From NCBI RefSeq assembly GCF_963921235.1, contig NC_086097.1, positions 35,900,001-35,964,000 of the forward strand: 64,000 nt of DNA. The letters are read 5' to 3'. The notes under the pieces are model-generated. The model did no database searches and had not been told where the DNA came from. It saw only the letters and a list, made by a program, of their open reading frames with translations. The stretch is from Mobula hypostoma. Lineage: Eukaryota. Numbering within the stretch: the stretch's first letter is position 1; the number at the start of each line of letters is the position of its first letter. Shown here one piece after another: positions 9,598-32,039 of the stretch. The position numbers and the translations under genes are program-made.

Positions 9598-9729
9598 TTC
9601 TCTTTTTTTTGGCATGTGCCTGCGTGCGTGCGAGTCTGTGCGTGTGCGTGTGTGCGAGTCTGTGTGTCCATGCGTGCGTCCGTGATGATGTCTTTTTCAT
9701 GGCTTTTACAAGGCGTGGAGCGAGCGAGC

Positions 9730-9762
<33 letters not shown>

Positions 9763-11153
9763 AGAGGGAGAGGGAGAGAGAGAGAGTGGGAGGGAGAGGG
9801 AGAGGGAGAGGGGGAGAGGGAGAGGGGGAGAGAGAGAGAGAGAGAGGGAGAGAGAGAGAGAGAGGGAGAGAGAGAGAGGGAGAGGGGGAGAGAGAGAGAG
9901 AGGGAGAGAGAGAGGGAGAGGGGGAGGGGAGGGGGAGAGAGAGAGAGAGAGGGAGAGAGAGAGAGGGAGAGAGAGAGAGAGGGAGAGGGAGAGCAAGAGA
10001 GAGAGAGAGGGAGAGGGAGAGGGGGAGAGGGAGAGAGAGAGAGAGAGGGGGAGAGGGAGAGGGGGAGGGGGGAGAGGGAGAGAGAGAGGGAGAGGGGGAG
10101 AGAGCGAGAGAGAGAGGGGGGGAGAGGGAGAGGGGGAGAGAGAGAGAGCGAGAGAGAGAGAGAGGGAGAGGGAGAGGGGGAGGGGGAGAGGGGGAGAGAG
10201 AGAGAGGGGGAGAGAGAGAGAGAGGGAGAAGGAGAGAGAGAGAGGGAGAGGGAGAGGGAGAGCAAGAGAGAGAGAGAGGGGAGAGGGAGAGGGGGAGAGG
10301 GGGGAGAGAGAGAGAGAGGGAGAGGGAGAGGGAGAGAGAGAGGGAGAGGGAGAGCAAGAGAGAGAGAGAGGGAGAGGGAGAGGGAGAGGGGGAGAGGGAG
10401 AGAGAGAGAGGGAGAGGGGGAGAGAGCGAGAGAGAGGGGGGGAGAGGGAGAGGGGGAGAGAGAGAGAGAGAGAGAGAGGGGAGAGAGAGAGAGGGAGAGA
10501 GAGAGAGAGGGAGAGGGAGAGGGAGAGCAAGAGAGAGAGAGAGAGGGGGAGAGGGAGAGGGAGAGGGGGAGGGAGAGAGAGAGAGGGGGAGAGGGAGAGG
10601 GGGAGAGGGAGAGAGAGAGAGAGGGAGAGGGGGAGAGAGCGAGAGAGAGGGGGGGAGAGGGAGAGGGGGAGAGAGAGAGAGGGAGAGAGAGAGAGCGAGA
10701 GAGAGAGAGAGGGATAGGGAGAGGGGGAGGGGGAGAGGGAGAGAGAGAGAGAGAGGGGAGAGAGAGAGAGGGAGAGAGAGAGAGAGAGGGAGAGGGAGAG
10801 GGAGAGCAAGAGAGAGAGAGAGAGGGGGAGAGGGAGAGGGAGATGGGGAGGGAGAGAGAGAGAGGGGGAGAGGGAGAGGGGGAGAGGGAGAGAGAGAGAG
10901 AGAGAGAGGGAGAGGGGGAGAGAGCGAGAGAGAGAGAGAGGGGGAGAGGGAGAGGGGGAGAGAGAGAGAGGGAGAGGGAGAGGGGGAGGGGGAGAGGGAG
11001 AGAGAGAGAGGGAGAGGGAGAGGGAGAGGGAGAGGGGGAGAGGCAGAGAGAGAGAGAGAGAGAGGGAGGGGGAGAGGGGAAGGGAGAGAGAGAGAGAGAG
11101 AGGGAGAGGGGGAGAGAGCGAGAGAGAGAGAGAGAGGGAGAGGGAGAGGGGGA

Positions 11154-11193
<40 letters not shown>

Positions 11194-22024: not shown

Positions 22025-24500
22025 ACATAGAACTTAGAATATAGAATAGTACAGCACAGTACGGGCCCTTCGGCCCACAATGTTGTGCCGACCTTCAAAC
22101 CCTGCCTCCCATATAAGCCCCCACCATAAATTCCTCCATATACCTGTCTAGTAGTCTCTTAAACTTCACTAGTGTATCTGCCTCCACCACTGACTCAGGC
22201 AGTGCATTCCACGCACCAACCACTCTCTGAGTAAAAAACCTTCCTCTAATATCCCCCTTGAACTTCCCACCCCTTACCTTAAAGCCATGTCCTCTTGTAT
22301 TGAGCAGTGGTGCCCTGGGGAAGAAGCACTGGCTATCCACTCTATCTATTCCTCTTATTATCTTGTACACCTCTATCATGTCTCCTCTCATCCTCCTTCT
22401 CTCCAAAGAGTAAAGCTCTAGCTCCCTTAATCTCTGATCATAATCCATACTCTCTAAACCAGGCAGCATCCTGGTAAATCTCCTCTGTACCCTTTCCAAT
22501 GCTTCCACATCCTTCCTATAGTGAGGTGACCAGAACTGGACACAGTACTCCAAGTGTGGCCTAACCAGAGTTTTATACAGCTGCATCATTACATCGTGAC
22601 TCTTAAACTCTATCCCTCGATTTATGAAAGCTAACACCCCATAAGCTTTCTTAACTACCCTATCCACCTGTAAGGCAACTTTCAGGGATCTGTGGACATG
22701 TACCCCCAGACCCCTCTGCTCCTCCACACTACCAAGTATCCTGCCATTTACTTTGTACTCTGCCTTGGAGTTTGTCCTTCCAAAGTGTACCACCTCACAC
22801 TTCTCCGGGTTGAACTCCATCTGCCACTTCTCAGTCCACTTCTGCATCCTATCAATGTCTCTCTGCAATCTTTGACAATCCTCTACACTATCTACAACAC
22901 CACCAACCTTTGTGTCATCTGCAAATTTGCCAACCCACCCTTCTACCCCCTATCCAGGTTGTTGATAAAAATCACGAAAAGTAGAGGTCCCAGAACAGAT
23001 CCTTGTGGGACACCACTAGTCACAATCCTCCAATCTGAATGTACTCCCTCCACCACAACCCTCTGCCTTCTGCGCAGACAAGTCAATTCTGAATCCACCT
23101 GGCCAAACTTCCCTGGATCCCATGCCTTCTAACTTTCTGAATCAGCCTACCATGTGGAACCTTGTCAAATGCCTTACTAAAATCCATATAGATCACATCC
23201 ACTGCACTACGCTCATCTATATGCCTGGTCACCTCCTCAAAGAACTCTATCAGGCTTGTTAGACACGATCTGCCCTTCACAAAGCCATGCTGTGTCCCTG
23301 ATCAGACCATGATTCTCTAAATGCCCAGAGATCCTATCTCTAAGAATCTTTTCCAACAGCTTTCCCACCACAGATGTAAGGCTCACTGGTCTATAATTAC
23401 CCGGACTATCCCTACTACCTTTTTTGAACAAAGGGCCAACATTTGCCTCCCTCCAATCCTCCAGTACCATTCCCGTGGACAACGAGGACATAAAGATCCT
23501 AGCCAGAGGCTCAGCAATCGCTTCCCTCGCCTCATGGAGCAGCCTGGGGAATATTCCATCAGGCCCCGGGGAGTTATCCGTCCTAATGTATTTTAACAAC
23601 TCCAACACCTCCTCTCCCTTAATATCAACATGCTCCAGAACATCAACCTCACTCACATTGTCCTCACCATCATCAAGTTCCCTCTCATTGGTGAATACCG
23701 AAGAGAAGTATTCATTGAGGACCTCGCTCACTTCCACAGCCTTCAGGCACATCTTCCCACCTTTATCTCTAATCGGTCCTACCTTCACTCCTGTCATCCT
23801 TTTTTCCTTCACATAATTGAAGAATGCCTTGGGGTTTTCCTTTACCCTACTCGCCAAGGCTTTCTCACGCCCCCTTCTTGCTTTTCTCAGCCCCTTCTTA
23901 AGCTCCTTTCTTGCTTCCCTATATTCCTCAATAGACCCATCTAATCCTTGCTTCCTCATGTATGCTGCCTTCTTTCACTTGACTAGATTTTCCACCTCAC
24001 TTGTCACCCAAGGGTCCTTCACCCTACCATTCTTTATCTTCCTCACTGGAACAAATTTATCCCTAACATTCTGCAAGAGATCTCTAAACATCAACCACAT
24101 GTCCATAGTACATTTCCCTGCAAAGACATCATCCCAATTCACACCCGCAAGTTCTAGCCTTATAGCCTCAGAATTTGCCCTTCCCCAATTAAAAATGTTC
24201 CTGTCCTCTCTGATTCTATCCTTTTCCATGATAATGCTAAAAGCCAGGGAGTGGTGGTCACTGTCCCCTAGATGCTTACCCACTGAGAGATCTGTGACCT
24301 GACCCGGTTCATTACCTAGTACTAGTTCTAGTATGGCATTCCCCCTAGTCGGCCTGTCCACATACTGTGACAGGAATCCGTCCTGGACACACTTAACAAA
24401 CTCTGCCCCATCTAAACCCTTGGAACTAATCAGGTGCCAATCAATATTAGAGAAGGTAAAGTCACCCATGATAACAACCCTGTTATTTTTGCACCTTTGA
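22025..24500 (-). mobile_element. Relatively young 5'-truncated CR1 LINE (ORF2 APE end, RT, C-terminus)
   Basis: Long ORFs with IMGDF, LGDSDH, YRPVSLTSVVGK, DFSKAFDKVPH and RPHLEYCVQFWSP; few frameshifts. Confidence 0.95.
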
Positions 24501-24544
24501 CTACTTTGAATGTGTCCAAAAAAGATGTCAGTAGACTTTACCAC

Positions 24545-24940
24545 ACCATAGAGTCATAGAACACTACAGCACAGATGGCCCTGCAGCCCATTTAGTCAAT
24601 GCCAAACCACAAAACTGCCTAGTCCCATCAATTAGCACACAGACCATGGTTCCCAATACTCCTCCCATCCATGTACCTATCTAATTCTCTTTTGAATGTT
24701 GAAATCGAACCCACATCAAACACTTGCACTGGCAATTCGATCCATACTCTCATCACGTTCTGAGTGAAGTTCCCTTTTTGTCTCCTTTCACCTTTCAACC
24801 TTAACCCATGACTTCTAGTTGTAGTTTCACCCAACCTCAGTGGAAAAAGCCTGCTTGCATTTACCCTGTCTACACCCCTCATAATTTTGTATCTCTCGGT
24901 CAAATCTCCCTTCAATTTTCCACATTCTATGGAATAAAGT
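24545..24940 (-). mobile_element. CR1 3' fragment
   Basis: LKGDLTERYKIMRGVDRV..TRSHGLRLKG. Confidence 0.8.
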
Positions 24941-25405: not shown

Positions 25406-26060
25406 ACTCTGAACTTCAGGACTGGAAGATGTAGAATCCTTGTGAGTAGAGTTAAGAAACTGCCAGGGTGAAAGAGTCTGATAGGAGTTATATACAGGCC
25501 TCCAAACAGTAGCCAGGATGTGGGCTACAAATTGCAATGGGAGGTAGAAAAGGTAAAAATGTAAAAAGGGCAATGTTATGATAGTCATGTGGGATTCCAA
25601 TATGCAGGCAGATTGGGAAAATCAGGTTGGTGCCGGATCCCAAGAGAGAATTTATAGAATGCCTATAAGATGGAATTTTAGAGCTGCTTGTGGGTGAGCC
25701 ACAGGGGATCAGCTATTTTGGTTAAGGTGTTGTGCAATGAACTGGATTTCATCAGTGAGCTAATCCAGGAGGAAGTGATGATAATATGATAAAATTCACC
25801 CTACAATTTGAGAGGGAGAAGCAAAAGTCAGATGTATCAGTATTATAGTTGAGTAAAGGGAATTACAGAGGCATGAGAGGCATGACCAAATTTGATTGGT
25901 AGGAAACACTAGCAGGGATGATGGCAGAGCAGCAACGGATGGAGCTTCTGGGAGCAAATCAGAAGGTGCAGGATAGACACATCCCAAAGGAGAAGTATTC
26001 TAAAGGCAGGATGATGCCACCATGGCTGACAAGGGAAGTCATAGCCAACATAAAAGCAAA

Positions 26061-26743
26061 TGTAGCCCCCCGCCGGCCACCCTCAGGGTTGCTCGGCTCA
26101 CTGTCGTCTAGGGAAACAGCCTCGGCCCCGCCAAACTGGGTAATAGTTTGTGTGGATGCTGTGTGAGGTACCCCACCCCGCCCAAATAACAGACAATACA
26201 CCAGATGCAATTAAATGATATACAGTTTATAGATATTACTGGAACTATATAATTAAGAGAATAAAATATAAAAGGAAAATAAAAGGCGCCACACTTATCG
26301 AAGTTCAATCTCTTCGTGCACAAAACAGTTGGAGCTCAAGGACCTTCTTCTTCACCCTGCGACCCCCTCGGACCACCTCGACCGGCCGCCTGGGACCAAC
26401 AAAGGTGGTCGACCAGACGCTCCACACGAGTCCGTCTCCATCTCCTCGCTGAACGCCCTCCTCGGGGTCCGACCCCGTTAGCGGACATCACAGCACCTCG
26501 TCCATCCTCTCCCACCTTCTGCCCCAAAACCCCACGCATACAGTATCTTCAAATACACCAAAACCATAACAACTATCCCAATTGGTTAATAGCACCCTCT
26601 TATCACCCTCTCAACAAAAACAAGCTGCTAGCGCAAACTTTCTCAGCGTTTAATACAACAAAGCCACATTCCCCACATTAACATAACAAAGACGCCATTT
26701 TAATTAGCCTCCGCTGTAACATAAAAGTCAAAACCCCCTGACA
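26061..26743 (-). repeat. 3' LTR
   Basis: Direct repeat of 29455-30148, preceded on the minus strand by the PPT at 26744-26756. Confidence 0.92.
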
Positions 26744-27031
26744 CTCTCCCCCCACCAAATAAAGTCATGTCCTCATGACTTCTAAATAACTCGCCAACCA
26801 GTCCTGCAGACACACAACACACACATACACAGATACACACAGTGCCAGTGCTCCCCAATCAGTGGACCTTACTCCCGTCCCACAGGCGCTACATAGGCCA
26901 ACCTATCTGGGAGCTTCTTAACCCTCCGAGACCTCCGTACCCCCTCACCTAAACCCAAAAGGCTCAGACACTACTAGGGATACCTCGGGTCCGCTTGCCA
27001 ACTCCTCTCTCACTCAGGCCACCACTACAGC

Positions 27032-27946
27032 TCAGAGCCCCCTGTCCTGTGTCCGGGGCCCCGCCTCTCCTCCTTCCTGATCCTGCCGCAACTCAGACTG
27101 CCCACAGCTAACCCTCCCCACTACACCTGACTCAGTGGGAGAAGGGCCAAAGGTCGCTTCCTCAATCACGGGGAAGCTAGCAAAAGGCAGCATGTACCAC
27201 ATGTGCAGCACATCATCCTTCGAATCCGTATCCTTCCTCATTCCTTCGACCGGTAGCTGCTGTTTGAGTTTCTCCAAACTGAAACATTTAGCCGGGGCTA
27301 CTCCTTCAGCCTCCTGCAGTTGAGACGTCAGCTTCTTCGGGGACTCCTTCAACACTCGCCACAGCCTCAGCAGTTCCGACTCAGGGTTCCTGGCCATCTC
27401 CATCTGGGACGCAGTTACCCCACCAGCTTCTTCCTCCCTGACCTGAAAAGCAGCAGTTAAAAGATGTTCAGCCTCCGGTTGTTTCTTCCTGAGGACGTCC
27501 TCCAGGTCAACTTTCAGTTTTTCCACTTCGTTTAAACTCACGATAGTCATCTTCAGGTTCCTTTCAAGCATCCGCCTCCCTTTTCCGAGATCTGTCCTCC
27601 ATTTCTTCACCTCCTCCGGAGTGTAGTCAAACTCTCCTCCCTGGGCGCTCGGTTTTCTGTTGACCTTAGTCAGAACACTTCCTTGATCTTCCCCAACTTG
27701 TAAGTCTTCCAATCTGTTCTGAATGGACGTCTTGAGTTTCTGCTGATCCCTTCGAAGGTGGGTCATTGTTTCTCCTCGCTGGATTAATTCATCAGTACAT
27801 GACCGCAGTGCGGTGCAAATCCCCTCTCTTCCCTGTGTCTCAATCAGATTGACGACCTGGGTTTCCATCCCCTGGTCCACCACCGTCTGTCCCAACACCA
27901 GGAAGTTCAACTGGTATGTCGGGTCATTTTTCTCACATTGCACCAA
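27032..27946 (-). CDS. Chimeric ORF: sarcomeric myosin heavy-chain rod fragments (~234 aa) fused to the Gypsy pol C-terminal tail
   Basis: 304-codon open frame with [75 protein letters not shown] and [24 protein letters not shown], colinear with myosin II rod motifs. The annotated start codon is TTG; expression is unknown. Confidence 0.8.
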
Positions 27947-29454
27947 ACTCCTCCGGCCAAAAACTCCTCCACATTTGACACTTCACTTCGGTCGCCCGGG
28001 CTCAGCCACTCCCCTCACCTCATAGTCCCCACAGGCGAATCCAAGCTCTAGGCGGTCATCCACATACGTCAAAACTCCACACACCTTCACTTCCCCCATG
28101 GTCTTCCTCATGCCCCGCAGGAAGGATGCAGGGGCTCCGGATATGCCCTTGGGCATCTTTTCGGATCGGAAGAATCCTAGGGAATTAGTAACGGCCATCT
28201 TCAGCTCAACAGCCGCACTCCTCGGGATCTGGCAACATCCACCCCTCAGATGCAGCACATTAAACCACGTTGCATAATCCACACACACGCTGCCTTCATC
28301 TTCCACGCCGCTAGGGTCCAGTTGCCGCGACCTCTCTCTTACTGAGGTGTCTTCAGCGGTCAACTCCCCTCCCTCGTGGTAGTTCGGAGCATCTACTAAG
28401 AGAGTCTCACCCTCAGCTACTTTCCCCAAACCGTACCACCGCTGGGTCTCGTTTAAATTCGCTACTGGCTCAAGGCTGCTACACACGTGCTCAGAAGCAA
28501 CTCGACACGCCGGGTGCCCAGAAAATGCCTCCATGACTTCCAGGGTCATTAACCAATCATCGTCTTCTGGATAACTACTGCCACTAGTACCCAAAGTCCC
28601 CGGTGCCCTTGTGGTTGTCAAGGATAAATGCTTCAGACACCGGTTTTAAAACGAACTGTACAACAACTTGATCTGCGCCCCGGGGTCGAGGATAGCTTTA
28701 GCATCGCTTCCCTCTATCCATAGCGACACCCTGGGGCGTGGCCCCTCTAGGCCTTCAGGAATAGGGTCTTTTCCTTTCGGAAGTTCATCGGTACATTGCT
28801 GGGAATGTGCTTACCCAGAGATCCCAAGCCGTTCCCCTCACTGGGCCTCCACTAAGTTTCCCGACACCTCTCTGATCAGCTGAACAACTGAAGGAGGGGC
28901 TGATCCCCTGAAATGATCCCCCTGGCACTGCAAGCAATTTAGCCGCCCTCCTAGCCACGGAAGACACACTGAAAACTTTCCCCCCTCTTTCAAATAACTG
29001 ACAGCTGTCACTACGGTGTAAGCGAGCCTGACAGCTCTAACACCGTCACCAGCCCGCCTACTCAAACTTTCAACCAATCCCTGTCGCTCTCCCTCAACCA
29101 AGCTCTGCCACTCATCTAACAACTGCGAGATCCGCTCCGCCCACGTCTCACACGCCTCCGCCCCTCTTGGGGTGGACACAATCCCAAACGCCAGGCAGAG
29201 CCTGCCAGAGCTAGAACATTTATTCGCAGACCCTACCTTCAAATCAGACCACTCTGTCCTCTCTCTCCCAACCGCATGGACAGCCCCAAGTGCCACCTCC
29301 AACTCATCAATGCTAGTCTGAACTCGAACAAAGACCTCACCCACCACGCATACAGCAATCACCAGCAAATAACCCACAGAGACACACATTACAGATTGAA
29401 ACAGGGCACCACACAGCATACCAGCAGACTCAATCCCGGACAAAGCCCACACAA

Positions 29455-30148
29455 TGTAGCCCCCCCCGGCCACCCTCAGGGTCGCTCGGCTCGCTGTCGT
29501 CTAGTGAAACAGCCTCAGCCCCGCCAAACTGGATAATTCGTTTGTGTGGATGCTGTGTGATGTACCCCACCCCGCCCAAATAACAGACAATACACCAGAT
29601 GCAATTAAATGATATACAGTTTATAGATATTACTGGAACTATATAATCAAGAGAGAATAAAATATAAAAGGAAAATAAAAGGCGCCACACTTATCAAAGT
29701 TCAATCTCTTCGTGCACAAAACAGTTGGAGCTCAAGGACCTTCTTCTTCACCCTGCGACCCCTCGGACCACCTCGACCGGCTACCTGGGACCAACAAAGG
29801 TGGTCGACCAGACGCTCCACACGAGTCCATCTCCGTCTCCTCGCTGAATGCCCTCCTCAGGGTCCAACCCTGTTAGCGGACATCACAGCACCTCGTCCAT
29901 CCTCTGTCCCGCTCTCCCGCCTTCTGCCCCAAAACCCCACGCATACAGTATCTTCAAATACACCAAAACCATAACAATTATCCCAATTGTTTAATAGTAC
30001 CCTCTTATCACCCTCTAAACCAAAACAAGCTGCTAGCACAAACTTTCTCAGCGTTTAACACAACAAAGCCGCATTCCCCACATTAACATAACAAAGACGC
30101 CATTTTAATTAGCCTCCGCAGTAACATATAAGTCGAAACCCCCTTACA
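29455..30148 (-). repeat. 5' LTR
   Basis: Direct repeat of 26061-26743, followed on the minus strand by the PBS. Confidence 0.92.
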
Positions 30149-32039
30149 CAAAAGGGAGGGCATATAATAAAGCAAAAATTAGTGGGAAGTCAGAGGACTG
30201 GGAAACTTTTAAAAACCAACAGAAGGCAACTAAAAAAGCCATCAGGTAAGAAAGATTTGAAATATGAACACAAGTTAGCCAACAATATCAAAGAGGATAT
30301 TAAACATTTTTCCAGATATAAAAACAGTATAAGAGAGGTGAAGATAGATATTGGACCACTGGAAATTACTGGTAGAGAGGGAGTAATGGCAGACAAGGAA
30401 ATTGCATTCAAACTGAATAAGTATTTTGCATCACTCTTTACTGTGGAAGACACTAGCAGCATGCCAGAAGTTTGAGAGTATCGGGGGAAGAAGTTTGTGC
30501 AGTTGGAGAAGGTGCTTGGGGAACTGAAAGGTCTGAAGGTACATAAGCCACCTGGACCAAATAGACTACACCCCAGGGTTCTGGAAGAGGTAGCTGAAGA
30601 GATTGTGGAGGCATTAATAATGATCTTTCAATCACTAGATTCTGTAATTGTTCTGGAGGACTGGAAAATTGCAAATTTCACTCTATTCTTTAAGAGAGGA
30701 TGGGAGAAGAAAGGAAATCATAGGCCAAGTAGCCTGACTTCAATGATTGGGAAGATGTTGGAGTCCTTAATTAAATATGAGGTTTTGGGATACTTAGAGG
30801 CATATACTTAAATAGGCCAGAGTCAGCATTGTTTCTTTAAGGAAAATCTTGCCTAACAAATCTGTTAGAATTCTCTGAGGAAATAACAAGCAGGATAGAC
30901 AAAGGATAATCAGTGGATGTTGTTTATTTGGATTTTCAGAAGGCTTTTGGCAAGATGCCACACATGAGGCTGCTTAACAAGATTAGAGCCCATGGAAAGA
31001 TTCTTGCAGGGATAGAAGATTGGCTGATTGGCAGAAGGCAAAGAGTGGGAATAAAGGGGTCAGTGTTGGGACTGCTTACATTGAATATCAATGATTTTGA
31101 TGACGGAATTGATGACTTTGTGGCCAAGTTTGCAGATAGGTGGAGGGGCAGGTAGTGTTGAGGAAGCAGGGAGGCTGCAGAAGGATGTAGACAGATTAGG
31201 AGAATGGACAAAGAAGTGGCAGATGGAATAGTGTCAATAAGTGTATGGCTAGGCACTTTGGTAGAAGGAACAAAAACATAGCCTATGTTCTAAAATGGGA
31301 GAAAATTCAAAAGTCCAAGGTGTAAAGGGAATTGGGAGGCTTCATACAGGATTCCCTAAAGGATAATTTGAAGGTTGATTCGGTGGTGAGGAAAACAAAT
31401 GCAATGTTAGCATTCATTTTGAAAGGTCTGGAATATAGCAGCAAGGATGTAATGCTAAAGCTGACAAGGCACTGGTGAGGCCTTACTTAGAGTCATTTTG
31501 GGCCCTTATTTAAGAAAGTTTGTGCTGACATTCGAGAATATTCGGTGGAGGTTCATGAGACTGATTCTGGGAATGAAAGGCATATCATACGAGGACTGAT
31601 TGACAGCTCTGAGCCTTTACTTGCTGGAATTTAGAAGAACGAGGAGGGATCTCATTGAAATCAATCGAATGCCGAAAGGCCTAGAGACAGTGGGTATGGA
31701 GTGGTTGTTTCCTATGGTGGGGGAGTCTAGGACCAGATGGCACAGCCTCAGAATGGAGGGATGACCTTTGAGAACAGAGATGAGGAGGAATTTCTTTAGC
31801 CAGAGGGTGGTGAATCTCTAAAATTCATTGTCACAGGTGCCTGTGGAGGCCAGGGCATTTAGTGTATTTACGGCAGAGGTTGATAGGTTCTTAATTAGTT
31901 AGACCATGAAAGGTTATGGGGAGAAGGCAGGAGAATGGGTTTGAGAGGGAAATGATTCAGCAATGATGAAATTACCAAGAAGACTCGATGAGCAGAATAG
32001 CCTAACTCTGCTGCTATGTCTTATCTACATATCCCCTAT

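What the first reader, a model, noticed from the sequence alone, without database searches (positions are those of the whole stretch)
27245..27946. LTR retrotransposon has captured a sarcomeric myosin heavy-chain rod fragment in place of RNase H/integrase
Seen: inside an element with two LTRs, TSD, PBS and PPT, the RT remnant is followed by ~234 open codons with no pol motifs, then by the element's own pol tail (..[11 protein letters not shown].., and further on RRSRRV..PDRLAYVAP). Knowledge, recalled rather than searched: these codons match myosin II rod motifs in the correct order. QCEKND ~ [23 protein letters not shown] ~ [40 protein letters not shown] ~ [43 protein letters not shown] ~ [40 protein letters not shown] ~ KKLAQRLQEAEE..AKCSSLEKTKQRL. 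The stretch [20 protein letters not shown] most resembles my recollection of MYH16. Inference: the long central block has no introns, so it came from a spliced mRNA by RT template switching. This would be retrovirus-style gene transduction by a vertebrate Gypsy element, which then inserted here as a unit.
Basis: partly seen in the sequence, partly recalled or inferred. Interest (0 to 1): 0.92.

Follow-up and report, generated by a model that had tools for sequence, protein, structure and literature searches.

The report
Retrotransposon family carrying captured myosin fragment
A defective jumping gene in a ray genome has swallowed a spliced piece of a muscle myosin gene and then copied itself, cargo included, roughly a thousand times: a clear vertebrate case of a known but rarely seen way of moving pieces of host genes.

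Summary
The finding is real. Window 26061-30148 (minus strand) is one dead copy of a non-autonomous Ty3/Gypsy LTR element with two LTRs, a 4-bp target duplication (TTTG), PBS and PPT. Its internal stretch 27235-27881 derives from a myosin heavy-chain rod. The donor is identified: a MYH16-like gene on contig C68 of the same genome. Consecutive donor exons, spread over about 182 kb with canonical GT-AG introns of 2.7-39 kb, lie abutted in the element. Nucleotide identity is 75-90% in this copy and 83-98% in older copies. The cargo therefore came from spliced mRNA. Older subfamilies keep RT and a complete RNase H before the cargo, so the capture replaced the integrase. The sequence after the cargo is the pol C-terminal tail. 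At least 752-1631 candidate places in the genome carry the chimera, with different flanks and duplications. A Hypanus protein shares the same junctions. The mechanism, LTR-mediated retroposition, is already described in flies, fish, birds and mammals. This is a new, unusually amplified member of a known kind. Whether the in-frame cargo serves the element is open.

The parts
30149..30152 (-). 5' target-site duplication TTTG
   Evidence: The same 4 bases follow the 3' LTR, and a paralogous copy of the flanking repeat has a single TTTG.
29455..30148 (-). 5' LTR (694 nt, TGTAAGG...GGCTACA)
   Evidence: Direct repeats; boundaries and 95.6% identity to the 3' LTR.
29433..29451 (-). Primer-binding-site-like sequence TGTGGGCTTTGTCCGGGAT, 3 nt after the LTR
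   Evidence: Copies L004 and L005 read TGGGGGCTCGTCCGGGAT. I recall this as tRNA-Pro complementarity; it was not tested (no tRNA gene in the DNA held).
28838..29419 (-). gag remnant (PNMA-type capsid), from the first in-frame ATG to a stop caused by a private 1-nt insertion at about 28838
   Evidence: Pfam PNMA E 2.6e-4, below cut-off. tblastn with P0161, a Gypsy polyprotein with PNMA gag. The 1-nt difference is seen in 7 of 7 other copies.
27983..28645 (-). Protease/RT remnant ORF (YVDD at 28055-28066), ending in a TGA private to this copy
   Evidence: Pfam RVT_1 E 0.027. tblastn P0153 393-488, E 6e-18. The other copies read through this codon.
27872..27961 (-).
   Evidence: tblastn P0153 668-697, inside its RNase H domain. 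The homologous stretch in L010 passes Pfam RT_RNaseH at 45.2 bits.
27235..27881 (-). Captured cDNA of the C68 MYH16-like gene. Blocks: exon A part 27810-27881, B 27719-27809, C 27632-27721, D 27485-27633, E remnant about 27435-27484, G part 27396-27434, H part 27314-27405, Z part 27235-27338. In frame with the pol remnants.
   Evidence: blastn to donor exons at 72.6-90% identity. 199 aligned codons: 80% nt and 63% aa identity, no stop. phmmer to myosins E 1e-7.
26757..27234 (-). C-terminal tail of the element's own pol (post-integrase region), with motifs TDSKDD..MWYMLPF (27182-27229) and RRSRRV..PDRLAYVAP (26884-26937, other frame)
   Evidence: Both motifs are colinear with P0161 1718-1739 / 1822-1835 and with P0153's C-terminus. 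The TDSKDD..WY motif aligned to P0161 in 6 of the 7 copies searched. The second motif aligned only in L010 and L011. Single E-values are weak, 0.016-0.6.
26744..26756 (-). Polypurine tract GGTGGGGGGAGAG
   Evidence: Directly upstream of the 3' LTR in the window and in the three other copies where the motif scan found the 3' LTR start (L003, L005, L006).
26061..26743 (-). 3' LTR (683 nt)
26057..26060 (-). 3' target-site duplication TTTG

Best explanation
Window 26061-30148 (minus strand) is one decayed copy of a non-autonomous Ty3/Gypsy LTR retrotransposon family. In this family the integrase-coding part of pol was replaced by an intronless fragment of the rod-coding region of a MYH16-like myosin heavy-chain gene.

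The donor gene lies on contig C68 (about 14.52-14.71 Mb) of the same genome. The fragment ran from exon 'A' to mid-exon 'Z', roughly rod residues 884-1420 in Callorhinchus MYH16 numbering.

Shown here:
- the cargo is host cDNA from that gene;
- the introns are gone;
- the 3' junction is the same, mid-exon, in all five copies tested;
- the chimera has LTRs, PBS, PPT and gag;
- it sits at many different genomic sites, each with its own 4-bp duplication.

Inferred: a spliced myosin transcript, or a read-through/spliced element-gene hybrid RNA, was packaged with element RNA. Reverse transcriptase then switched templates, at least at the 3' junction. This produced a chimeric, integrase-less element. 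Autonomous Gypsy relatives in the same genome mobilised it in trans, to about a thousand copies.

During that long activity the cargo was whittled down by internal deletions at glutamate-rich (..LEE..) repeats. The deletions differ between subfamilies, and in this subfamily all kept the reading frame.

The cargo most likely has no host function. The copy in the window is dead: three private in-frame stops and a private 1-nt insertion.
For: (1) Donor and intron loss.
- blastn of element copies against 180 kb of C68 shows consecutive exons abutted. In L010: 14524967-5196 (90%), 14564079-186 (93.5%), 14583575-665 (90%), 14612358-504 (96.6%), 14615495-591 (93%), 14651245-272 (96%).
- In L012 and L013, exon D is 97-98% identical.
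- In the window copy, blocks A, B, C, D, G and H are 74-90% identical.
- Exon Z matches C68 at 88-92% in old copies, against 67-71% for the second MYH16-like gene on C36.
- All seven introns between exons A and H have AG acceptors. Six have GT donors; the donor after exon H reads GGTAT in the printout and its boundary was not fixed. The spliced exons A-G give an open 267-codon myosin rod frame.
- The introns removed measure 38.9, 19.4, 28.7, 3.0, 35.7, 12.4 and 2.7 kb.

(2) Element identity. RT and RNase H in L010 and L011 are 61-67% identical to Gypsy polyproteins P0153 and P0161, which have the order RT-RNaseH-integrase. The cargo begins after the end of RNase H, and the pol tail motifs follow it.

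(3) Mobility as a unit.
- Of 8 copies examined in full, 4 have perfect 4-bp TSDs, each at a different flank (TTTG, CACA, and TATG at two sites), 1 matches at 3 of 4 bases, 1 is consistent, 1 has no match and 1 is not assessable. LTR pairs are 94.9-97.6% identical.
- The 951-nt ORF has 1631 first-look candidates; 40 of 40 scored are 95-100% identical, essentially full length.
- The 120-nt cargo/tail junction has 752 candidates; 40 of 40 scored are 96-100%.
- P0015 finds 1154 candidates; 150 of 150 scored are significant, spanning 74% down to about 40% identity.

(4) A single capture followed by deletions. The 3' junction sits at C68 about 14707454-456 in win, L009, L010, L011 and L014. The subfamilies differ in internal deletions that cannot be derived from one another.

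(5) Other species. Annotated proteins from Mobula birostris, M. hypostoma and Hypanus sabinus carry the same chimera. Hypanus P0003 shares the F/G, H/Z and cargo/tail junctions.

(6) Helpers exist. Many long-ORF Gypsy pol copies with integrase are in the same genome.

(7) The mechanism is documented in metazoans (PMC5131818, passages read).
Against: - The autonomous parent was not identified, so microsimilarity at the two original junctions, a hallmark of template switching, could not be measured.
- In L010 and L011, homology to the donor starts within 2 nt of the acceptor site of exon A. A random template switch would rarely do that. It fits better a splice between an element read-through transcript and exon A, or an unrecognised piece of the upstream exon. 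About 27 nt between the RNase H end and exon A are unassigned, and the upstream exon was not found.
- No copy with the undeleted cargo was seen. The longest intronless matches are 247-260 aa, but only 24 candidates were scored in each of those searches.
- Trans-mobilisation and its timing are inferred, not shown.
Confidence: 0.9

Rival explanations
1. The cargo is not passive. The chimeric gag-pol-remnant/myosin coiled-coil reading frame has been kept open by selection because the element uses the protein, or needs translation through it. Possible uses are multimerising with or hitch-hiking into the helper's particles, or protecting its RNA.
For: - In the window subfamily every internal deletion kept the frame. 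The RNase H remnant and blocks A, B, C, D, G, H and Z are all read in the donor's frame in one ORF: 199 aligned donor codons with no stop in 5 of 8 copies.
- Stops and frameshifts in the 8 copies are mostly private, so the progenitor's pol-remnant-to-tail frame was probably open for about 590 codons.
- Simulated unconstrained substitution at the observed divergence leaves no stop in only 1.5-14% of trials.
- Changes assigned to the young master lineage give pN/pS 0.35-0.70. Private post-insertion changes give 0.87.
- The lineage with these junctions is shared with Hypanus.
Against: - The counts are small: 9-11 synonymous against 13-23 non-synonymous changes. By my own binomial estimate, which no call computed, only one of the four polarisations would be nominally below neutral.
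- The simulation reuses a substitution spectrum that is already conditioned on no stops.
- Many replacements introduce Pro or Gly into the former heptads ([23 protein letters not shown]), which argues against a conserved coiled coil.
- Donor-versus-copy dN/dS of 0.39-0.76 is what a constrained gene lineage plus a neutral element lineage would give.
- No expression data.
Confidence: 0.15
2. The cargo entered by DNA-level events: a LINE-made processed pseudogene of the myosin gene inserted into, or recombined with, an LTR element copy, which then became a master copy.
For: The genome is rich in LINEs; the window copy itself sits in one. An intronless copy could also be made this way.
Against: - Both ends of the cargo lie inside the coding region: it starts at rod exon A and ends mid-exon Z.
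- There is no 3' UTR or poly(A) at the cargo/tail junction (sequence).
- The cargo replaces about 575 pol codons instead of interrupting pol.
- The cargo is in sense orientation and in frame with pol.
Confidence: 0.05
3. The ORF is a genuine host gene ('myosin-16-like', as public annotations call its relatives), or only a chance coiled-coil resemblance.
For: NCBI names cluster relatives 'myosin-16-like', 'putative uncharacterized protein MYH16' and 'myosin heavy chain, striated muscle-like'. Pfam finds no myosin tail in the window ORF.
Against: - About a thousand LTR-flanked copies with copy-specific stops and frameshifts.
- RT remnants are fused upstream in the annotated proteins too (RVT_1 in P0004, P0012, P0020).
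- Nucleotide-level identity to specific exons of one gene excludes chance.
Confidence: 0.01

Closest known systems
LTR-mediated retroposition chimeras (Tan et al. 2016, Genome Res 26:1663, PMC5131818; passages read)
   Same: An internal partial retrocopy of a host mRNA replaces part of the internal ORFs of an LTR retrotransposon. The introns are lost, there is no poly(A), and the chimera can behave as a non-autonomous element and be retroposed again. [quoted passage not shown]
   Different: The cases quoted in the passages I read are single or few-copy young loci (Bs1: 1-5 copies). Here the chimera became a family of the order of a thousand copies, with several subfamilies. It is shared by at least two ray families. 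Microsimilarity at the junctions could not be checked here.
Acutely transforming retroviruses carrying v-onc genes (recalled knowledge: read-through/splice at the 5' side, RT recombination at the 3' side, helper-dependent)
   Same: Spliced host gene segment inside the element. Replication genes are replaced, the cargo is in frame with the upstream viral frame, and a helper is needed. The 5' homology starts at an exon acceptor (within 2 nt) and the 3' junction is mid-exon, as that model predicts.
   Different: This is a Ty3/Gypsy retrotransposon without env, inherited in the germ line. The cargo is a structural coiled-coil fragment, not a growth regulator. There is no evidence that the cargo gives any advantage.
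Maize Bs1, and HERV-K with captured FAM8A1 (as summarised in PMC5131818)
   Same: LTR elements holding exonic pieces of host genes, with shared switch points among copies.
   Different: Their copy number is low. They concern other hosts and element lineages.
Sarcomeric myosin heavy chain MYH16 (Pfam Myosin_tail_1 family)
   Same: The cargo descends from rod exons of a MYH16-like paralogue. The order of segments is preserved.
   Different: There is no motor domain. About 215 of some 1080 rod residues remain, with five or more internal deletions. Identity to the donor is 63% aa. Pfam does not detect it. It is fused to pol remnants. It is not a myosin gene.

Membership tests
Ty3/Gypsy (Metaviridae) LTR retrotransposon, non-autonomous derivative | Two LTRs in direct orientation with TG..CA ends | tested here: met
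   694 and 683 nt, 95.6% identical, TGT...ACA.
Ty3/Gypsy (Metaviridae) LTR retrotransposon, non-autonomous derivative | Short target-site duplication (4-5 bp) | tested here: met
   TTTG in the window. Perfect 4-bp TSDs in 4 of 8 copies, with 1 more at 3 of 4 bases. A paralogous empty site has a single TTTG.
Ty3/Gypsy (Metaviridae) LTR retrotransposon, non-autonomous derivative | PBS complementary to a tRNA 3' end next to the 5' LTR; PPT next to the 3' LTR | tested here: inconclusive
   Sequences are present at the right places. The tRNA match (tRNA-Pro) is recalled only; aragorn found no tRNA gene in the 244 kb held.
Ty3/Gypsy (Metaviridae) LTR retrotransposon, non-autonomous derivative | pol domain order PR-RT-RNase H-integrase, with Gypsy-type RT/RNase H | tested here: met
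   RT then RNase H in L010 and L011, 61-67% identical to P0153 and P0161, whose Pfam order is RVT_1, RT_RNaseH, Integrase_H2C2, rve. The integrase itself is absent, replaced by the cargo, which makes the element non-autonomous.
LTR-mediated retroposition chimera | Host-derived insert lacks the donor's introns | tested here: met
   Exons A-H and Z are abutted. Seven introns of 2.7-39 kb are removed between A and H, with AG acceptors throughout and GT donors at six of the seven.
LTR-mediated retroposition chimera | Insert replaces part of the element's internal ORFs, is a partial mRNA, and has no poly(A) | tested here: met
   The cargo sits between the RNase H end (P0153 about aa 760) and the pol tail (P0161 about aa 1718). 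It ends mid-exon Z.
LTR-mediated retroposition chimera | Microsimilarity between element and mRNA at both switch points | not testable with these tools
   This needs the true autonomous parent, which was not identified. Both junctions lie in Glu-rich GAG/GAA sequence, which is only suggestive.
LTR-mediated retroposition chimera | Secondary retroposition of the chimera | tested here: met
   752-1631 first-look candidates. 40 of 40 scored are full length or junction-spanning, at different loci.
Myosin heavy chain (Pfam Myosin_tail_1 / functional MYH gene) | Passes the family model; has motor, neck and a full rod | tested here: not met
   No Pfam family at E<=1 for the window ORF. It holds only rod pieces, fused to pol remnants.

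The most novel reading that the evidence does not exclude
The captured myosin coiled-coil has been retained as a translated module of the defective element. It stayed in frame with the gag-pol remnants through five or more in-frame deletions and about 20% nucleotide divergence, since before the Mobula/Hypanus split. It may contribute to the element's exceptional success, for example by oligomerising with or entering the helper's particles, or by shielding the RNA. If so, this would be a host structural domain co-opted by a retrotransposon, rather than the reverse.
Probability: 0.15. Interest if true: 0.8.

Novelty: new member of a known kind. Interest (0 to 1): 0.5.

Why it matters
- It is an unusually clean vertebrate example of gene transduction by an LTR retrotransposon. 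The donor gene, the exon map, both junctions and a series of deletion derivatives are all visible in one genome.
- It shows that such a chimera can become a high-copy, long-lived family in a cartilaginous fish. It is not limited to being a one-off retrocopy.
- There is a practical consequence. Public annotations of Mobula and Hypanus list these transposon ORFs as 'myosin-16-like', 'MYH16' or 'myosin heavy chain-like' genes. That inflates the myosin family and could mislead studies of muscle genes.
- The shared junctions give a ready-made phylogenetic marker for dating element activity in batoids.
- The in-frame survival of the cargo poses a testable question: do defective elements benefit from captured host domains?

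Tried and rejected
- Pfam on the window ORF: no family at E<=1. This reflects low sensitivity, not evidence against a myosin origin.
- Word-based search for longer relatives: only 1 hit, myosin-7B of Amblyraja, E 1.1e-4.
That stretch is an RNase H remnant. My own first reading of it as the RT thumb 'KCxF..FLG' motif was also wrong and is dropped.
- The second MYH16-like gene at C36:112.7 Mb is rejected as donor: 67-71% identity against 88-92% for C68 exon Z.
- The exon upstream of A was searched with P0018 and no hit was found on C68 14.4-14.5 Mb. The probe is MYH7-like and may be too distant, so the origin of the 27 nt before exon A stays open.
- Autonomous partner: many Gypsy pol copies exist, but none was tied to this family.
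As a result only 8 young copies were studied end to end, and old copies only within +/-1.5 kb.
- Earlier findings of this scan: nothing held.
- Expression: no RNA holder listed. The four runs laid are contigs of unrecorded kind. They only show that the same chimera occurs there; for example, one 1,993-nt contig in X9 bridges 26846-28812 with 94 differences. Nothing can be said about transcription.
- The tRNA for the PBS was not found in the DNA held.
- Codon-based selection tests are inconclusive.
- Literature: searches for 'LTR retrotransposon' + 'gene capture' + 'myosin', 'MYH16' + 'retrotransposon', capture/transduction terms, 'LTR-mediated retroposition' and non-autonomous LTR / host gene fragment / vertebrate listed no paper on a myosin-carrying LTR element or on this ray family. 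Only listings and abstracts were seen, except PMC5131818, where passages were read.
Full report
**1. What is at the site**

On the minus strand the window holds a 4.09-kb LTR element.
- The LTRs are 29455-30148 and 26061-26743. They are 694 and 683 nt long, with 651 of 681 aligned bases identical and ends TGT...ACA.
- The element is flanked by TTTG on both sides, at 30149-30152 and 26057-26060.
- A paralogous, uninterrupted copy of the flanking repeat elsewhere in the genome has a single TTTG at that point. The boundaries and the 4-bp target duplication are therefore sound.
- A PBS-like sequence lies 3 nt inside the 5' LTR, at 29433-29451. The purine tract GGTGGGGGGAGAG abuts the 3' LTR, at 26744-26756.
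- In copies L004 and L005 the PBS reads TGGGGGCTCGTCCGGGAT. I recall this as the tRNA-Pro primer site. I could not test it, because no tRNA gene lies in the DNA I held.

The interior reads, in order:
- a gag remnant with weak PNMA similarity (E 2.6e-4);
- a protease/RT remnant (YVDD at 28055-28066; RVT_1 E 0.027);
- the 316-codon ORF 27032-27982.

**2. Is the myosin resemblance real?**

Pfam finds nothing in the ORF at E<=1. Other searches do.
- phmmer against PDB chains aligns ORF residues 58-175 with Myosin-4 residues 977-1094 at E 1e-7. It finds colinear weaker pieces at 1110-1187 and about 1380-1427. Eleven of the 12 best-scoring matched sequences are full-length myosin II heavy chains.
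- A full scan of 1.84 billion representative proteins gives 29 hits at E<=1e-3. One group consists of relatives of the ORF itself, 53-93% identical. Their sources name them from Mobula birostris, M. hypostoma and Hypanus sabinus, often as 'myosin-16-like' or 'MYH16'. Some carry RT remnants (RVT_1 in P0004, P0012 and P0020). The other group consists of true myosin fragments.
- One protein, P0015 from Narcine, bridges the two groups (Pfam Myosin_tail_1 E 3.6e-7). Its roughly 44 best long relatives are almost all named myosin-16-like, from Callorhinchus and teleosts; a few rows are unnamed or labelled myosin-7-like for the same species.

**3. The donor gene and the loss of introns**

The window's own genome is held (3.48 Gb).
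- Searching it with P0015 gave an exon-like hit on contig C68.
- I fetched 180 kb there. tblastn with Callorhinchus MYH16 (P0034) showed a string of rod exons 3-48 kb apart.
- blastn of element copies against this region is decisive. In the old copy L010, element positions 1121-1804 match six successive exons in order and abutted: C68 14524967-5196, 14564079-186, 14583575-665, 14612358-504, 14615495-591 and 14651245-272. Identities are 90-96.6%.
- L012 and L013 match exon D at 97-98%.
- L014 and the window copy also contain the end of exon G and the start of exon H.
- The window copy matches blocks A, B, C, D, G and H at 74-90%.
- A further exon (Z, from about 14707341) supplies the KKLTS.LQEAE..AKC.SLEK.KQ segment. 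Old copies match it at 88-92%, against 67-71% for the equivalent exon of a second MYH16-like gene on contig C36.
- All seven introns between exons A and H have AG acceptors. Six have GT donors; the donor after exon H reads GGTAT in the printout and its exact boundary was not fixed. The spliced exons A-G give an uninterrupted 267-codon rod frame.
- The introns missing from the element measure 38.9, 19.4, 28.7, 3.0, 35.7, 12.4 and 2.7 kb.

About 182 kb of gene is thus condensed into about 770 nt in L010, and into 647 nt (27235-27881) in the window. The cargo came from spliced RNA of this gene. Odd-looking residues in the element, such as [10 protein letters not shown] where canonical myosins have LDDLQAEEDK, are simply the donor's own sequence.

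**4. What was replaced**

In L010 and L011 the sequence upstream of exon A is a Gypsy RT followed by a complete RNase H domain.
- L010's stretch passes the Pfam cut-offs: RT_RNaseH 45.2 bits and RT_RNaseH_2 38.2 bits.
- It is 60-63% identical to long vertebrate Gypsy polyproteins.
- Two of these polyproteins, P0153 and P0161, have the order RVT_1, RNase H, Integrase_H2C2, rve. P0161 also has a PNMA-type gag.
- The RNase H ends at the ...YRPG..NIDVDV motif, equivalent to P0153 about aa 760. About 27 unassigned bases follow, and then exon A.

Downstream, the match to exon Z stops at C68 about 14707454-456, which is inside the exon. This holds in all five copies tested (win, L009, L010, L011, L014).

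What follows the cargo carries two motifs:
- TDSKDD...VWY.LPF;
- later, R.S.R....PDRLAY.

These occur in the same order and at similar spacing near the C-termini of P0161 (TDSEDEEFGVWYDIPF ... RKAPSRLTY) and P0153. The first motif aligned to P0161 in 6 of the 7 copies searched. The second aligned only in L010 and L011. Single E-values are weak, 0.016-0.6.

The capture therefore removed the linker, the zinc finger, the catalytic core and most of the C-terminal domain of integrase, about 575 codons. It kept the very end of pol, the PPT and the LTR.

In the window's subfamily a later deletion removed most of RNase H and the first 50 nt of exon A. What remains of RNase H is 27872-27961 (..[18 protein letters not shown]..), which matches P0153 668-697.

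**5. A family, not a single event**

- The 951-nt ORF has 1631 first-look candidates in the genome. All 40 that were scored are 95-100% identical and essentially full length.
- A 120-nt probe across the cargo/tail junction has 752 candidates, and 40 of 40 scored are 96-100% identical.
- P0015 finds 1154 candidates. All 150 scored are significant, with identities grading from 74% down to about 40%.
- I read eight young copies end to end (window plus L002-L008).
 - LTR pairs are 94.9-97.6% identical.
 - 4-bp duplications are perfect in four copies, each at a different flank: TTTG, CACA, and TATG at two sites. One copy matches at 3 of 4 bases, and one is consistent from the three bases visible. 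One copy has no match, and one is not assessable because its 5' LTR was only partly recovered.
- Six older loci (L009-L014) all show the order gag - RT - myosin - tail.
- The subfamilies differ by internal deletions in the cargo.
 - L009, L010 and L011 join 25-44 nt of exon F to exon Z base 23.
 - L014 and the window family join a few bases of F to G base 56, and H base about 73 to Z base 1.
 - The window family also lacks 120 nt (A122 to B15) and 27 nt in D/E.
- Neither pattern can be derived from the other, while the 3' junction is shared. The simplest history is one capture of a longer cDNA (exons A to Z, about 1.6 kb) followed by independent deletions.
- The deletion joints lie at repeated ..(V/L)EE.. 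codons, which suggests slippage or template switching at short repeats.
- No undeleted copy was among the hits scored. The longest intronless matches are 247-260 aa, with only 24 candidates scored per search.

**6. Age and spread**

- The Hypanus protein P0003 is 59% identical to the window ORF over 227 residues. It has the same F/G, H/Z and cargo/tail junctions.
- That sub-lineage therefore predates the split of mobulid and dasyatid rays, or it moved between them.
- Synonymous divergence between donor and old copies is 0.10-0.18. For the young family it is 0.26-0.32.
- I give no absolute dates, because I have no measured substitution rate for these fishes.

**7. State of this copy and the question of selection**

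The window copy has private defects.
- A TGA at 27983-27985 separates the RT remnant from the cargo ORF.
- There are two further stops in that frame.
- One extra base lies at about 28838. The other seven copies lack it, and so do contigs of three of four public runs.
- The other copies read through the RT/cargo junction, with ORFs of 289-451 codons across it. Each has its own stops or frameshifts.

The progenitor of the young family therefore probably had an open frame of about 590 codons, running from the protease remnant through the cargo to the tail.

All deletions in the cargo kept the donor's frame.
- 199 donor codons can be aligned to the window copy without a stop.
- Under simulated unconstrained substitution at the observed divergence, only 1.5-14% of trials stay stop-free.
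- Changes assigned to the young master lineage give pN/pS 0.35-0.70, from 9-11 synonymous and 13-23 non-synonymous changes.
- Private, post-insertion changes give 0.87.

Together these are a hint of selection for an open frame, not proof. Against a conserved coiled coil, many replacements are prolines and glycines.

**8. Mechanism**

Shown:
- a spliced host transcript is the source;
- it replaces pol sequence;
- it has no poly(A);
- its 3' end is mid-exon;
- it is in sense and in frame;
- the chimera is mobile with LTR-type duplications.

This is the anatomy described as LTR-mediated retroposition, in which RT switches from element RNA to a co-packaged mRNA and back. [quoted passage not shown] From my own recollection, it is also the anatomy of helper-dependent transducing retroviruses.

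One detail deserves attention. In L010 and L011 the homology to the donor begins within 2 nt of the acceptor site of exon A. A random switch would seldom land there.
- Either a little of the upstream exon is present but unrecognised. I could not find that exon.
- Or the 5' junction was made by splicing of a read-through element-gene transcript, as in the classical retroviral capture model. In that case only the 3' junction was made by RT recombination.

Mobilisation in trans is inferred. The element lacks integrase and has only RT remnants, while the genome holds many related Gypsy pol copies with long open frames that include integrase. The specific partner was not identified.

**9. Rivals**

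- Chance coiled-coil similarity, and a normal domain of autonomous relatives, are excluded by exon-level nucleotide identity to one host gene and by the integrase found at that position in relatives.
- A genuine myosin gene is excluded by copy number, LTRs and copy-specific defects.
- A LINE-made processed pseudogene nested in an element is unlikely. Both ends are inside the coding region, there is no poly(A), and pol sequence is replaced rather than interrupted.
- A functional role of the cargo for the element remains possible. I put it at about 15%.

**10. Novelty and value**

- Five literature searches listed no report of a myosin-carrying LTR element or of this ray family. I saw listings and abstracts only, except for passages of PMC5131818. 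Supplements were not consulted.
- The mechanism is known, so this is a new member of a known kind.
- What stands out is the scale: of the order of a thousand copies and several subfamilies, where the cases quoted in the passages I read have one to a few.
- It also stands out for its persistence across ray families, for the completeness of the record in one genome, and for the in-frame survival of the cargo.
- It also exposes systematic mis-annotation of transposon ORFs as myosin genes in public ray genomes.
- Interest: 0.5.

**Limits**

- Copy numbers are first-look candidate counts, with only 40-150 scored per search.
- There is no information on expression. No RNA holder was listed, and the runs laid are contigs of unrecorded kind.
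- The genus assignment (Mobula) rests on the names of the closest public proteins.

Noticed in passing
public proteins P0002, P0032, P0003, P0007, P0009 (Mobula spp., Hypanus sabinus): Automatic genome annotation names ORFs of this transposon family 'myosin-16-like', 'putative uncharacterized protein MYH16' and 'myosin heavy chain, striated/cardiac muscle-like'. Several carry RT remnants. These are mis-annotated transposon copies.
   Followed up: partly
G000 C68:14524969-14711642 (loci L015-L032, L040): The donor MYH16-like gene has very long introns, 2.7-39 kb between rod exons, with the stretch from exon A to exon Z covering about 182 kb. It is more diverged from Callorhinchus MYH16 (45-76% per exon) than a second MYH16-like gene at C36:112.716-112.718 Mb (74-83%). 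One alignment on C68 includes a TAG. No motor or neck exons of the C68 gene were located. Whether it is a complete, functional gene is open.
   Followed up: partly
window 28838: The window copy has one base more here than 7 of 7 other copies, and than contigs in 3 of 4 runs. In the rest of the family, gag and the pol remnant are therefore one frame apart, as in elements that use a frameshift between gag and pol.
   Followed up: partly
window 23975-24553 and 30190-31155; flanks 25950-26056 and 30153-30260: The element is inserted in a LINE-like repeat. The ORF 23975-24553 (minus strand) matches Pfam Exo_endo_phos_2 'endonuclease-reverse transcriptase' at E 1.1e-5, below cut-off. The immediate flanks recur several times in the 180-kb C68 region.
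   Followed up: partly
window 9718-11189: A 1.47-kb (GA)n microsatellite, about 370 copies of GAGA at 73-83% matches. It explains the GC and purine skew peak in the composition profile.
   Followed up: yes
G000, e.g. C76:3021711-3025655, C40:64399584-64402856: The genome holds very many Gypsy pol copies related to P0153: 49,753 first-look candidates, of which 31 were scored. Some have open frames above 1,400 codons that include the integrase region. They are possible helpers for the defective family.
   Followed up: no
L009-L014 (C64, C5, C91, C198, C116, C148): Older subfamilies keep different parts of the cargo. L009, L010 and L011 hold exons A-E plus 25-44 nt of F, joined to Z from base 23. 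L014 and the window family hold a few nt of F joined to G base 56, then H 1-73 joined to Z base 1. L012 and L013 hold exons C-E at up to 98% identity. This implies a fuller ancestor, which was not found among the scored hits.
   Followed up: partly
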